A stretch of DNA of 64,000 bases from the human T2T-CHM13v2.0 reference genome, Homo sapiens. The notes below the pieces were generated by a model, which worked only from the letters and a program-made list of their open reading frames with translations, was not told where the DNA came from and did no database searches. Shown piece after piece: positions 2,337 to 6,449 of this stretch. The translations under genes were made by a program, and so were the position numbers. The stretch lies in assembly GCF_009914755.1 (NCBI RefSeq), contig NC_060927.1. One strand, given 5' to 3'. Position 1 is the first letter of the stretch. Every line of letters starts with the position of its first letter.

Positions 2337-2980
2337 GGCCTTGGCAACCCAGCCCTCATCGGCTGCATGTATCCTTGGAGATGAGGCTCTGGGAGCCCAA
2401 ACACAGGCCGCAGAGCTGTGGGAAGAGCCATTCTTCCCTCCTCCACCTCTCCCTGCCCCTGGGGAGCTGTGGACCTCCCAGAACCAGGCCTGCTGGAAGG
2501 AATGCATCCAAAAGGAGGCCACCACCCAAGTTGCCTGGAAGATCAACGATGGCCACAAGTACCTAAGGGAGGGGACCGTGCCCAGGAAGCAGCTCCAGCA
2601 GGCCCCATCCAGGTCAGCCTTGGTAGCGGGCCCAGTGCCTGCCACCAGCTCCCGTGATAGCAAGGAGGTACAGGTTGGATGGCCAGAGACCAAGGGGGCC
2701 CAGAACCAGCTGTCCAAGGGAGTGGGTGTCCAGGACTCCCCACCCAAGGGAGACAGAGTCTGGAAGGCCAGAAAAGCAACTCAGGGGCCAGCAGGTCAGA
2801 CCAGGCCGGAGAGTTTAGAAATGAGGCAGGTCTCCCCAAGAATCCTGCAGCTGCTCTTCCCAGGCATCTCCCACGATGGCCAAGGCCACGCCCTGGACCT
2901 CCAGGCACGGCATCGGCTGAAGCCCGAGGAGAAGTTCCAGTACCCAGTCATGTCATCCTAGGAGTACAGCTGGCACGTGG
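2337..2980 (+). pseudogene. SPMIP1/ATP6V1FNB-like disabled gene, main coding exon
   Basis: Acceptor CTCTCCTCTCTTTCAG| at 2336; the frame from 2461 reads GELWTSQNQACWKECIQKE...EMRQVSPRILQLLFPGISHDGQG...PEEKFQYPVMSS*EYSWHVG, resembling SPMIP1 as recalled; in-frame TAG 2959-2961; donor G|GTAAGG at 2980/2981. Confidence 0.8.
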
Positions 2981-4029
2981 GTAAGGGCCACCACCATCTT
3001 GCCATTCCAGGCCTCTGGCAGGCAGGCCTGGCCTCCCTCCCCAGCCTCATCCTTCACCACCCCTCACCCCGGCTCATGGACCTGGATCACCTTCCTCTGA
3101 GCACATAGACCTTGGGGATGTGCTTAGGCACCTTCACACTTCCAGGCCTTTTCATGCTCTGGTCTCTCCACTTGGGATGCTCCTCCTGCTGCCCCACCCT
3201 GATGAAATTTCACACATCACCTCCTCTGGGAAGTCTTCTGAGATGCCTCCAAGCAGATTAGTTGAGCCCACCTTCATGCTTCTGCAGGTTTTTGAGTCCA
3301 CAGAAGCACTGGGCACACGGAATCACCATTCCTTATATATCCATCTGGCCTGGGGAGCCCTTTGGGTTCCAAGACTTCTTAGTTAACTTTATTCATGCCC
3401 TCCCAGCTCCCAGCCTGGGGCTGGTACTTGACTGTGGAATGAATGAACAAATGAATGAACATGGACTAGGGATGAGAACTTGATTTGCAATCAGGAGGTA
3501 TGAGTTCAAATCCTGGTTCTACCACTTCTGAGTTGTATGATCTCAGGCAAGAGCCTCAACTTCTCTGGGCCTCAATTTTCACATCTGAAAAATGGGAATA
3601 ACCTAGTATGTGCCTTCCTGTGTCATGGAGTTTTGGGGAAATCAAGTGGGAAAGCACTTGGAATAGGAACTGTCCTCACAAACCCCCTGTGAGGTAGGAA
3701 CCAAGTGTGATTCCATCATTCAGAATGGAGAGGAGATCTGGAGTTACTGAATCCCAGCTCTACCTGGAAATGAGTCACTGAACAAACAAGCACAGAATTG
3801 TGAATCAGTTTAATTAGGAGGCTTGGGTTTGATTTCTGGCTCATTCATTCATTCAGTCTGTCAATCATTTAACAAGTGTTTATTGAGCTCCTGGTATGTG
3901 TCAGACACTTACACTTTTTGTCCCTGGGCATACAACAGAGAACAAGACAGACATGATCCCTGCCCTCACCAAAGGTAGACAACAAACAGATAATGATGCG
4001 GTGTCAGGCAGTGGTCCACACTACTACAG

Positions 4030-4195
4030 AGCAGCCCTTTTCCATCTTTCCTATGCACAGGAATCAGCTGGGGTCTTGGTAAAATGCAGGTTCTGACTGG
4101 GGCAGGGAGTGGGCGGTGATGGGGGAACTTCTGCATTTCTAACAAGTTCCCAGATGGTGCCGATGCTGCTGGTCCATGGACCATACCTCGAGGTC
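4030..4195. mobile_element. MER5-like hAT-Charlie DNA transposon remnant
   Basis: CTGCATTTCTAACAAGTTCCCAGATGGTGCCGATGCTGCTGGTCC matches the recalled MER5A consensus. Confidence 0.7.
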
Positions 4196-4231
4196 AAGGC
4201 TAAAGGAGAAGATAAGTTAGAAGAAGGAGAT

Positions 4232-4755
4232 GGCCAGGTATGATGGCTCATGCCTGTAATCCCAGTGCTTTGGGAGGCCAAGGCAAAATAATCACTTGAG
4301 TCCAGGAGTTTGAGACCAGCCTGAGAAACATAGTGAGACCCCATCTCTACAAAAAAATTTAAAAATTAACCAGGCATGGTCGTGTGCAACTGTAGTTCCA
4401 GCTACTTCGGAGGCTGAGGTGGGAGAATTGCTTCAGCCCAAGAGTTTGAGGCTGCAGTGAGCAAAGATTGTGCCACTGCACTCCACCTTGGGCAACAGAG
4501 CAAGACCTTGTATCAAAAAAGGAAGAAGAAAAGAAGGAGAAGGAGAAAGAGAGGAAGAAGAAGAAGAGGAAGAGGAAGAGGAATAAGAAAAAGAAGAAGA
4601 GGAAGAAAAAGAAGGGGAGGAGGAGGAAGGGGAGGGGGAGGGGAGGGGAGGAGGGAGGAGGGTGGAAGGAGGAGGGGAAGGAGAAAGAAGAGAAGAAGGA
4701 GAAGGAGGACAGAAGGAGGAGAAGAAGAGGAAGAAGGAGGAGGAGGAGAAGAGGC
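4232..4755 (+). mobile_element. AluJ-like element with tail expanded into a GA-rich low-complexity tract (about 4515-4755)
   Basis: Alu dimer followed by AAG/AGG purine repeats. Confidence 0.9.
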
Positions 4756-4954
4756 TGCTCTGGTAAACCTGGTGGTCAGGAAAGGCCTGCTGGGAGGGAG
4801 CATTTGAGCAGAGTCCTAGGTATTACAGTATCTACTCCACAGGACTCATCCACAGAGCAGGTCTCAGCTGAGGCGCCACACAGCAACCTCCCAGTCCCCT
4901 CCTGCTCTGGCACATGCGTCTGTGTCCACTGCCTTTGAAGCCAGTGCCAGTTAT

Positions 4955-5122
4955 AGGGTTGCCAGATCTAGCAAATAAAAATGCAGGATGCCCAGTTACC
5001 TTTGAATTTCAGATAACAAATAATTTTTTAGTGTACATATTTCCCAGATACCTAAACAACAATTTGTTGTTTATCTGAAATTCAAAGGTAACTGGGCATC
5101 CTGAATTCCATCCTGGCAACCC
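4955..5122. mobile_element. MER53 palindromic hAT MITE
   Basis: Termini AGGGTTGCCAG...CTGGCAACCC; long internal inverted arms. Confidence 0.85.
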
Positions 5123-5154
5123 AATCATTGAGGTGCCGGTTCCCATGCCAGGGG

Positions 5155-5628
5155 GGCTGGGACTGCAGGTGCACACCACCATGCCCAGCTAATTTTTGTA
5201 TTTTTTGTAGTGATGGGGTTTCGCCCATGTTGCCCAGGCTGGTCTCAAGCTCCTGGCCAAGAGATCCGCCCAACTCAGCCTCCCAAAATGCTGGGATTAC
5301 AGGTATGAGCCAATGTGCCTGGCCTAGATGACAGACTTTTTTTATTTTTTTTTTTTTGAGACAGAGTCTCACTCTGTCACCCAGGCTGGAGTGCAGGGGT
5401 GCAATCTCGGATCCCCGCAACCTCTGCCTCCTGGGTCCAAGCGATTCTCCTGCCTCAGCCTCCCAAGTAGCTGGGATTACAGGCACCTGCCACCACACCC
5501 AGCTAATTTTTGTATTTTTAGTAGAGACAGGGTTTTGCCACATCGGCCAGGCTGGTCTCGAACTCCTGACCTCAGGAGATCCTTGGCCTCCCAAAGTGTT
5601 GGGATTACAGGTGTGAGCCACTGCGCCT
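5155..5628 (-). mobile_element. Two antisense Alus (partial about 5155-5326; full about 5340-5628)
   Basis: Alu consensus blocks with poly-T. Confidence 0.9.
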
Positions 5629-6330
5629 GATGAGAGACTTACTATTGACCACTTCCCTTTCCCCACCACAGTTACAAACAGGGGCAGTGACATTCCAGTG
5701 GCTGCAAAAAGACACAGGGAAGAGGGGTTAAAGGCATAATCTGGACCCCAGCTAGGTCAGCCAAAAATGCCCTTTTACACATGTAAAGCACAGTCTAGGG
5801 CCTGGCATGAAGTAAGTGTTCAAACAAATGGTAGCTGGTATTATTAGCACTGTAGTTGGTGGTGGTGGTGACTCAACAGGCAGGATTTGCAGCCTATGGG
5901 CATGTGGGGAGCTAGTTCAGCCTTGAGTAGCCCCCACGTGCCTCCTGTGGAGCACTGGTATGGGTGGGGTATCCAGGGACAACAGGAGAAATGGGATGTG
6001 GGGTAAGTGAGCTTGGGGTGGGGTAGAGTCAGAATAGTTAATTGGAATTGCCCCCCTATCAGGACAGATCCTGGTGGTGCTGCCAAGGTGGGGTGTCAAG
6101 GTCTCCGTGCGATGTCAGGCATTACCCTTTGGTTATGAGGTCATAGGAGGGTCTGAGGGTCCTAAGGTAGGAAGGCATGGCTGGTCCTAGGTGGTACAGA
6201 AATATTGCACTTTTTTAACAACTGAAGCAGCTATAGTAGTGTGTCCCTGCTGGCCCTCGGCCCTGTGGGTTGGGGTAATGTGGCAGGAGGAAGGTGACCC
6301 TCACTCTCCCCAGCCTCTGCTGTGTTGCAG

Positions 6331-6449
6331 GGGACGCTATGAAGCACATCAAGGTTCCAACTTATGCCAAGGTCCAGTCCATCACAAAGGTGTTTTACAC
6401 CCAAAGTGGCATCTGCCATTTCCCACGGCAAACAGACCAGCTCACGTGA
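6331..6449 (+). pseudogene. SPMIP1/ATP6V1FNB-like disabled gene, terminal coding exon
   Basis: Acceptor TGTTGCAG| at 6330; phase-1 join completes Gly, then DAMKHIKVPTYAKVQSITKVFYTQSGICHFPRQTDQLT* (TGA 6447-6449); too short to appear in the ORF track. Confidence 0.72.

What the first reader, a model, noticed from the sequence alone, without database searches (positions are those of the whole stretch)
2337..6449. Hidden spliced paralog of the sperm/ciliary microtubule inner protein SPMIP1 (ATP6V1FNB): candidate recently lost gene
SEEN: the frame from 2461 stays open for about 166 codons, hits a single TAG (2959-2961), and continues EYSWHVG into a G|GTAAGG donor (2980). A TTGCAG| acceptor 3.35 kb downstream (6330) has the matching phase 1 and supplies 38 more codons ending in TGA (6447-6449). 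The spliced product is about 212 codons. KNOWLEDGE (recalled, not searched): human SPMIP1 has an N-terminal 'QNFWKEE..RE....W' segment, a Pro/Lys-rich linker, then '[26 protein letters not shown]..R....PE.[16 protein letters not shown]' and a tail with 'FFRKNG'. This locus shows the same blocks in the same order: 'QACWKECIQKE....W', a Pro/Gly/Lys linker, 'EMRQVSPRILQLLFPGISHDGQGHALDLQARHRLKPEEKFQYPVMSS*EYSWHVG' and 'FYTQSG'. INFERENCE: it is intron-containing (so not a retrocopy) and too diverged to be a recent SPMIP1 duplicate. It is therefore likely an ancient paralog, intact in other mammals and a unitary pseudogene here. I cannot tell whether it is already annotated.
Basis: partly seen in the sequence, partly recalled or inferred. 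Interest (0 to 1): 0.92.

Follow-up and report, generated by a model that had tools for sequence, protein, structure and literature searches.

The report
Broken SPMIP1 paralog next to FLNB
Just downstream of FLNB, human chromosome 3 carries the decayed remains of a second gene of the sperm and ciliary microtubule inner protein SPMIP1 family, a gene that is still intact in many other mammals.

Summary
Window 2461-2980 plus 6331-6449 splice in phase into 212 codons with one in-frame TAG (2959-2961).

The product belongs to the SPMIP1 family (Pfam PF22589, E 3.6e-19). This genome has only two such loci, SPMIP1 on chr7 and this one.

Intact orthologs of 202-214 aa occur in lemur, horse, sloth, stoat, cheetah, elephant, squirrel, ibex, voles and bats. 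They are about 30% identical to SPMIP1 of the same species. All 24 relatives have Trp where human has TAG. Human exon 2 matches their tail and their stop position.

Both genes share the split-Gly, phase-1 intron. Each lies about 11-12 kb after a filamin gene, FLNC or FLNB, so the duplication is old and large-scale.

Human lacks the ancestral ATG and has changed 10 of 44 columns invariant in 13 non-primate orthologs; mouse lemur has changed 0. Three of these changes are shared with two other anthropoid sequences.

Verdict: a real unitary pseudogene or decaying gene. It is partly annotated as LOC124909485 and was not found in print. Interest is moderate.

The parts
2458..2460 (+). Place of the ancestral start codon, now CCT (Pro)
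   Evidence: 12 of the 16 spliced ortholog models begin M-[RKE]-[DE]-[LVM] exactly here. Human reads ..LPAP-GELW. The window has no in-frame ATG upstream of the LEMRQ Met.
2461..2980 (+). Coding exon 1 of the SPMIP1 paralog, from ancestral residue 2 to the first base of the split Gly codon
   Evidence: Aligns end to end with 202-214 aa orthologs. The sea urchin ATP6V1FNB chain 8snb_1i aligns from its residue 2.
2776..2976 (+). Match to Pfam PF22589 (SPMIP1), profile positions 27-93 of 122. It includes the SNYG-type motif, which reads SS*EYSW in human
   Evidence: E 3.6e-19, 69.6 bits. One search gives the same stretch in the whole-genome scan, 74.9 bits with 1 TAG inside.
2959..2961 (+). In-frame TAG at a Trp that 24 of 24 relatives keep
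   Evidence: Trp has the single codon TGG, so one base change is inferred.
2981..6330 (+). Former intron of 3350 bases (donor GTAAGG, acceptor TTGCAG). It holds masked repeats and a purine-rich microsatellite at 4519-4754
   Evidence: The position and phase match the 1835-base SPMIP1 intron.
6331..6449 (+). Coding exon 2: two bases of the Gly codon, 38 codons and TGA
   Evidence: 27/37 identical to the lemur tail. The stop is at the same alignment column as in the orthologs.
1927..2457 (+). Open upstream continuation of the frame, used as coding by the RefSeq model LOC124909485. No family match and no ATG

Best explanation
This is the human ortholog of a second, unstudied member of the SPMIP1 (ATP6V1FNB) family of microtubule inner proteins. 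It has two coding exons and lies just downstream of FLNB.

The gene and SPMIP1 (downstream of FLNC and ATP6V1F) are old duplicates that arose together with their filamin neighbours. This is inferred to be the vertebrate genome duplications.

In many mammals the gene encodes a protein of about 210 aa. It has the conserved N-terminal block, the SSWEYGW (SNYG-type) tubulin-contact motif and a conserved tail. By homology to the sea urchin and bovine proteins seen inside doublet microtubules, it most likely lines the lumen of axonemal doublets. That function is inferred, not shown.

In the human lineage the gene is decaying:
- the ancestral start codon is gone;
- a TAG replaces the Trp of the motif and cuts off the last 45 codons;
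- the family-invariant Gly of the motif is Ser;
- further invariant residues are changed.

It is best called a unitary pseudogene that may still be transcribed.
For: Family and copy number
- Pfam PF22589 E 3.6e-19.
- PDB chains: ATP6V1FNB 8snb_1i E 2.5e-11, SPMIP1 9v10_Ia 2.8e-5, bovine 8otz_A 6.3e-5.
- Only 2 PF22589 loci in the genome.

Orthologs
- 24 relatives at E 1e-15 to 1e-73, 17 of them with species names.
- 16 of 24 carry the exon-2 tail. 24 of 24 have Trp at the TAG place.
- Seven species hold both this gene and SPMIP1 proper, on different contigs.

Gene structure and neighbourhood
- Same split-Gly, phase-1 intron as SPMIP1.
- Filamin repeats lie on the same strand and end 11.4 kb before this locus on chr3 and 11.8 kb before SPMIP1 on chr7. 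ATP6V1F lies in between on chr7 only.

Tree (IQ-TREE, 48 rows)
- Human sits inside the mammalian paralog clade (100/100) and is sister to mouse lemur (94/87).
- Its end branch is 0.21 against 0.092 for mouse lemur.

Decay
- Human changes 10 of 44 columns that are invariant in 13 non-primate orthologs. Mouse lemur changes 0 of 44, and leave-one-out controls change 0-4 of 44-48.
- Human changes 6 of 23 columns invariant across both paralogs; lemur changes 0.
- R143, E149 and G170 are also lost in an unnamed 92%-identical sequence and in the tamarin. The TAG is seen only in human.
- Y147 and G171 are among 9 columns invariant in 48 diverse family members, and both are changed in human.

Function of the family
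- The SNYG module with its conserved Gly contacts tubulin (PMC10973386, passages).
- Sea urchin SPMIP1 sits at B-tubule protofilaments B07-B10 (PMC11834534, table passage).
- The intact sloth and ibex paralogs score 97.7 and 77.5 bits to that sea urchin chain. Sloth SPMIP1 scores 77.1.
Against: - RefSeq predicts a protein-coding gene here (LOC124909485) that takes its start from exons further upstream.
- Both splice sites are intact and the 212 codons hold no frameshift. Only one stop is present. That is fewer lesions than long neutral decay would lead one to expect.
- I saw one human assembly. A cluster of human-identical reading frames ending at the same TAG (18 members, 152 contigs) suggests the TAG is common, but fixation is untested.
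- No ape sequence was available.
- No expression, proteomic or structural datum exists for the intact orthologs. No solved chain is this paralog, so its role as a microtubule inner protein rests on homology alone.
- Synteny of the orthologs with FLNB was not testable.
Confidence: 0.85

Rival explanations
1. The human locus is still a working protein-coding gene. It would make the N-terminally extended, C-terminally truncated protein of the RefSeq model, with a changed or reduced function.
For: The frame is open for 344 codons from 1927 to 2961. RefSeq models it as coding (hub annotation). There is no frameshift in the homologous part.
Against: - The upstream extension has no family match and no ATG within the window.
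- The TAG removes the Trp of the tubulin-contact motif and all 45 codons after it.
- Before the TAG, invariant R23, R143, Y146 and E149 are already changed.
- GC-rich sequence often keeps frames open by chance. Several overlapping frames of 100-220 codons lie on both strands here.
Confidence: 0.09
2. The TAG is a variant of this assembly or a polymorphism, and many people carry an intact gene.
For: Only one human genome was examined. A single base separates TAG from TGG.
Against: - A cluster of 18 sequences from 152 contigs, identical to human, ends at the same place.
- Even with Trp restored, the start codon and 8 further invariant residues, including the motif's Gly, are lost. Three of those losses are shared with other anthropoids.
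Confidence: 0.05
3. It is a recent duplicate or retrocopy of SPMIP1, or a chance open frame.
For: None beyond the family resemblance.
Against: - Identity to SPMIP1 is 30-33%.
- It has its own intron at the conserved place.
- It has its own orthologs in at least 17 named species.
- The clades separate at 100/100.
- Pfam E is 3.6e-19.
Confidence: 0.01

Closest known systems
Human SPMIP1 (ATP6V1FNB), chr7, downstream of FLNC and ATP6V1F
   Same: - Same Pfam family.
- Same order of blocks: N-terminal ..W.E...KE...R..W, a Pro/Lys-rich linker, EM..V.P...LL..G.SH..QGR..YL..R....PE.., the motif ..YGW..G, and a tail with F[FY].K.G.F.
- Same two coding exons, with a phase-1 intron in the Gly codon after the motif.
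- Same position about 11-12 kb after a filamin gene on the same strand.
   Different: - Only 30-33% identical.
- The linker is about 35 residues longer.
- The motif is SSWEYGW, as in invertebrates, instead of TT[SN]FTYGW.
- The tail ends PRRTDQLM instead of LLDPRDLAL.
- No ATP6V1F-like gene lies between it and the filamin gene.
- SPMIP1 is intact in human; this gene is not.
Sea urchin ATP6V1FNB/SPMIP1, chain 8snb_1i, a B-tubule microtubule inner protein of sperm doublets
   Same: The ibex ortholog aligns over residues 3-203 to 3-188 of the chain, tail included (E 1.2e-20). The human N-terminus GELW.. aligns to its residue 2. The SSWEYGW motif is identical.
   Different: It is the single pre-duplication-type gene, equally related to both mammalian genes: 77-98 bits to the paralog and 77 bits to SPMIP1. 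Its place in the microtubule is known (PMC11834534, table passage). The paralog's place is not.
Other SNYG-module inner proteins (CFAP90/FAP90, CFAP144, CIMIP1, SPMIP11, PIERCE1/2)
   Same: They share the short motif with a conserved Gly plus a helix that contacts tubulin (PMC10973386, passages). There is a weak match to FAP90 chain 9e2g_3S (E 0.0003-0.35). The protein atlas lists CFAP144 and CIMIP1 clusters as nearest neighbours (leads only).
   Different: These are different Pfam families, with no similarity outside the module.
Unitary pseudogenes named by HGNC after a paralog lost in human (for example RNF4BP, PTPN11BP)
   Same: It is a degraded copy of an ancestral functional gene whose orthologs work in other species (definition in PMC12807706, passages).
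   Different: No name or description of this locus was found. RefSeq lists it as protein-coding.

Membership tests
SPMIP1 family (Pfam PF22589) | Score above the curated Pfam cut-off | tested here: met
   69.6 bits against a cut-off of 32.1. 74.9 bits in the genome scan.
SPMIP1 family (Pfam PF22589) | N-terminal block, with W13, E15, E20, R24 and W27 invariant in 22 members of both paralogs | tested here: met
   Human keeps W, E, E and W and has Q for R24. The block aligns to sea urchin residues 2-28.
SPMIP1 family (Pfam PF22589) | Intact SNYG-type motif with the invariant Tyr-Gly-Trp | tested here: not met
   Human reads SS(TAG)EYSW. There is a stop inside the motif, and Gly, invariant in 48 of 48 members, is Ser. 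The motif is intact in all 13 non-primate orthologs and in both lemurs. The locus therefore belongs to the family by descent but does not encode a working member.
SPMIP1 family (Pfam PF22589) | Two coding exons, with a phase-1 intron in the Gly codon after the motif | tested here: met
   chr3: G|GTAAGG ... TTGCAG|GG. chr7: G|GTGAGC ... CCCAG|GC.
SPMIP1 family (Pfam PF22589) | Location in the lumen of axonemal doublet microtubules | not testable with these tools
   No solved chain is this paralog. The best matches are SPMIP1-type chains at E 1e-14 to 1e-27, even for the ibex and sloth proteins.
Unitary pseudogene | Functional orthologs in other species | tested here: met
   16 spliced models of 153-249 aa have an intact motif and tail. 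44 columns are invariant across 13 non-primate species. Whether they are expressed was not tested.
Unitary pseudogene | Disabling lesion in the species in question | tested here: met
   TAG at 2959-2961, no ATG at 2458-2460, and 10 of 44 invariant columns changed.
Unitary pseudogene | No intact copy of the same gene elsewhere in the genome | tested here: met
   There are only two PF22589 loci. The other is SPMIP1 proper.
Unitary pseudogene | Lesion fixed in the species, and orthology confirmed by synteny | not testable with these tools
   Only one human assembly was available. The orthologs came as proteins without gene neighbours.
Old large-scale duplicate (filamin paralogon) | Both copies keep paralogous neighbours in the same order and orientation | tested here: met
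   Filamin-repeat clusters lie at C7:130151462-130167520 (+) and C3:58139115-58209102 (+), each ending 11-12 kb before the SPMIP1-type gene on the + strand. Assigning the duplication to the vertebrate genome duplications is an inference.

The most novel reading that the evidence does not exclude
Most mammals, and probably other vertebrates, possess a second, so far unstudied SPMIP1-type microtubule inner protein encoded next to FLNB. It has kept the invertebrate-type SSWEYGW motif.

Anthropoid primates, humans included, have let it decay. If so, human axonemes lack a luminal protein that mouse, cattle and other model species still build in. That would be a species difference relevant to reading animal cryo-EM maps and knock-outs as models of human sperm and cilia.

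Unnamed mammalian sequences with frameshifts in the same gene hint at repeated, independent losses.
Probability: 0.45. Interest if true: 0.6.

Novelty: new member of a known kind. Interest (0 to 1): 0.45.

Why it matters
- It adds a gene to the catalogue of axonemal inner proteins. The intact orthologs exist in databases only under the borrowed names 'protein ATP6V1FNB' or 'protein SPMIP1'. That hides the fact that they are a separate gene from the one modelled in sperm doublet structures.
- It adds a well-supported entry to the list of human or anthropoid gene losses, and it suggests that the RefSeq label 'protein-coding, uncharacterized' should be reconsidered.
- It gives structural biologists a named candidate for unassigned densities or peptides in mouse, bovine or pig axonemes.
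- It gives evolutionary biologists a case in which a sperm and cilia structural gene was dispensable in one primate branch.

Tried and rejected
- Exon 2 alone found nothing in Pfam (0 families at E up to 10) or among solved chains (0 at E up to 10). It is too short at 38 aa. Its homology was shown instead through the orthologs.
- The protein atlas gave only large arthropod- or chordate-labelled SPMIP1, CFAP144 and CIMIP1 clusters. It gave no taxa for the paralog clade, so the depth of the duplication beyond mammals stays unlabelled. The unnamed representatives that group with the paralog (for example P0127, P0128, P0132, P0133) have no organism names.
No fold comparison was made.
- A search for a polyadenylation signal near the RefSeq transcript end at 4299 found no A[AT]TAAA in 4201-4320. 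The first such signals after the TGA are at 7006 and 7422. This settles nothing.
- Counts of changed invariant columns for P0002, the tamarin and Lemur catta over the whole length are unreliable after the exon-1 end. Those models run into the intron or are spliced differently. I used only the named exon-1 positions.
- Recent duplicate, retrocopy and chance frame were considered and rejected (see rivals).
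Full report
**Observation.**
- The frame that contains 2461 is open from 1927 to a TAG at 2959-2961.
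- It goes on EYSWHV and ends with the first base of a Gly codon at 2980, before GTAAGG.
- TTGCAG ends at 6330. Bases 6331-6332 complete the Gly codon, 38 codons follow, and TGA lies at 6447-6449.
- Joined in a script, the two parts give 639 bases, or 212 codons and a stop.

**Family.**
- The read-through translation of exon 1 matches Pfam PF22589 (SPMIP1) at E 3.6e-19. The score is 69.6 bits against a cut-off of 32.1, over profile positions 27-93 of 122.
- Among solved structures it matches three SPMIP1-type chains: sea urchin ATP6V1FNB (8snb_1i, E 2.5e-11, aligned from that chain's residue 2 to the human GELW at 2461), SPMIP1 (9v10_Ia, 2.8e-5) and bovine 'ATP6V1F neighbor' (8otz_A, 6.3e-5).
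- A six-frame scan of the whole assembly finds exactly two loci for this family. One is SPMIP1 on chr7 (105.2 bits, no stop). The other is this one (74.9 bits, one TAG).

**Orthologs.**
- A search of the large protein collection gave 24 relatives at E 1.8e-15 to 8.9e-73 among 49 candidates. All 24 carry the precomputed Pfam family, and 17 have species names: mouse lemur, horse, sloth, stoat, cheetah, Iriomote cat, elephant, ground squirrel, ibex, two voles and lemming-type rodents, three bats, tamarin and tree shrew.
- In their sequences, 24 of 24 have Trp where human has TAG.
- 16 of 24 are spliced models that end in a tail of the type GDAMKDTKAPTYA..QPITKTFYIKSGIFHFPRRTDQLM.
- The other 8 are 7 unspliced reading frames that run on into the intron and one differently spliced tamarin model.
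- 12 of the 16 spliced models begin with Met at the place where human reads Pro (CCT, 2458-2460).
- The human spliced reading aligns end to end with them and stops at the same column. Human exon 2 is 27/37 identical to the mouse lemur tail (E 2e-18 for the pair).
- A search among longer proteins added a Lemur catta model with an intact exon 1. It also added a cluster identical to human that ends at ..YPVMSS, at the TAG (18 member sequences, 152 contigs).

**A separate gene from SPMIP1.**
- A search with human SPMIP1 exon 1 gave 86 relatives among 96 candidates.
- Sloth, mouse lemur, Lemur catta, tamarin, two bats and the grasshopper mouse each appear in both lists with different proteins on different contigs.
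- The two groups are 30-33% identical.
- In an IQ-TREE tree of 48 rows the 12 named paralogs and the 11 named SPMIP1 proteins are each one side of a branch with 100/100 support.
- The human reading sits inside the mammalian paralog set (15 rows, 100/100). It is sister to mouse lemur (94/87), with an end branch of 0.21 against 0.092.
- A FastTree tree of 133 rows agrees.
- An exhaustive profile search finds 559 representatives at E up to 0.001. Several unnamed ones group with the paralog (99/95). They have no organism names, so I cannot say how far beyond mammals the gene reaches.

**Origin.**
- SPMIP1 exon 1 ends ..GWQLG with G|GTGAGC. Its exon 2 begins after CCCAG with GC, then 35 codons. This is the same split Gly codon, phase and exon count as on chr3. 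The introns are 1835 and 3350 bases.
- Filamin repeats lie on the + strand at C7:130151462-130167520. They end 11.8 kb before the SPMIP1 ATG.
- Filamin repeats also lie on the + strand at C3:58139115-58209102. They end 11.4 kb before window position 2461.
- A third cluster lies on the X chromosome with no SPMIP1-type locus near it.
- ATP6V1F exons lie between FLNC and SPMIP1 on chr7. Nothing similar lies on chr3.
- The two genes therefore duplicated together with their filamin neighbours. That this was one of the vertebrate genome duplications is my inference.
- The sea urchin protein is about equally close to both: 97.7 and 77.5 bits to the sloth and ibex paralogs, and 77.1 bits to sloth SPMIP1.

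**State of the human copy.**
- There is no ATG at the ancestral place, and none in frame within the window before the Met of LEMRQ.
- The TAG lies inside the motif SSWEYGW. Trp has one codon, so a single base change is inferred.
- Of 44 alignment columns invariant in 13 non-primate orthologs, human has changed 10: M1, R23Q, R143H, Y146D, E149A, W167 stop, G170S, K198Q, F202C and R207Q.
- Mouse lemur has changed 0 of 44. Leaving out each non-primate in turn gives 0-4 of 44-48.
- Of 23 columns invariant across both paralogs, human has changed 6 and lemur 0.
- In an alignment of 48 diverse family members only 9 columns are invariant. Human has lost three of them: M1, Y147 and G171.
- R143, E149 and G170 are also changed in an unnamed sequence 92% identical to human and in the tamarin. 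Y146D is shared with the former. Both keep the Trp. Both lemurs and the tree shrew keep all of these residues.
- So constraint was already relaxed in the common ancestor of these anthropoids, and the TAG came later.
- The ancestral Met is also replaced in both lemurs. Mouse lemur has a Met a few codons upstream.

**Points against plain decay.**
- Both splice sites are intact.
- The 212 codons hold no frameshift.
- RefSeq models the frame as coding, with a start in exons upstream of the window.
- The upstream extension matches no family.

**Function (inferred).**
- Andersen et al. place SPMIP1 among proteins with an SNYG module. That motif has a highly conserved Gly and, with its helix, contacts tubulin on the inner microtubule surface (PMC10973386, passages only).
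- A review table places sea urchin SPMIP1 in the B-tubule at protofilaments B07-B10 with 48-nm spacing (PMC11834534, passage only).
- The ibex paralog aligns over residues 3-203 to 3-188 of that chain, tail included.
- The intact paralog therefore most likely is a luminal doublet-microtubule protein.
- The human product, if any is made, lacks the motif's Trp, its Gly and everything after. It should not bind in that way.
- No solved chain is the paralog itself, not even in the bovine sperm entry.

**In print.**
- Full-text searches for ATP6V1FNB, SPMIP1 or LOC124909485 found 30 papers, none with LOC124909485.
- Searches for 'SPMIP1-like', 'ATP6V1FNB-like' and similar terms found 3 papers, all hits on 'ATP6V1F neighbor' only.
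- Searches for SPMIP1B, SPMIP1BP and similar terms found 0 papers.
- A search for 'unitary pseudogene' with 'microtubule inner protein' found 1 paper, the HGNC report. It defines unitary pseudogenes and does not mention this locus in the passages seen.
- None of these describes a second SPMIP1-type gene. Subscription journals and supplements were not searched.

**Verdict.**
The locus is a new member of a known kind: a lost paralog of a known inner-protein family. It is of moderate interest.

Noticed in passing
Proteins P0124, P0125, P0171; P0122, P0221; P0158, P0159: Unnamed mammalian relatives of the same gene look broken too. Three share a frame change right after ..YLRERHR (..RSRRSFCTRSCHPGSTAGTW is the motif region read in another frame). 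Others have the Gly-to-Ser change, small deletions or W-to-R in the motif. This hints at independent losses in other lineages, unless they are assembly or model errors.
   Followed up: partly
(name columns): Orthologs of this paralog and orthologs of chr7 SPMIP1 carry the same automatic names ('protein ATP6V1FNB', 'protein SPMIP1') in the same species, for example sloth, Molossus and Onychomys. The names hide that these are two genes.
   Followed up: yes
window 4519-4754: A purine-rich microsatellite (AGAAGG / GGA units, about 235 bases) inside the former intron. It produces long artificial Lys/Arg/Glu-rich and Ser/Pro/Leu-rich open frames on the two strands.
   Followed up: partly
window 167-305, 386-466, 1952-2460: The in-window part of the RefSeq coding model upstream of the SPMIP1-like part (about 240 codons) has no Pfam match and no Met. 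In a stoat-like and an ibex-like unnamed reading frame the region just upstream is also open, but partly in another frame than in human.
   Followed up: partly
G000 C12:48046444-48046743 and C6:34539694-34539849: There are matches to the V-ATPase F subunit family away from ATP6V1F. The chr12 one covers profile positions 1-89 in one open frame, as a processed copy would.
   Followed up: no
whole window: AATAAA occurs 116 times against 37.8 expected from shuffles, largely in A-rich repeat tails such as 50514-50555.
   Followed up: no
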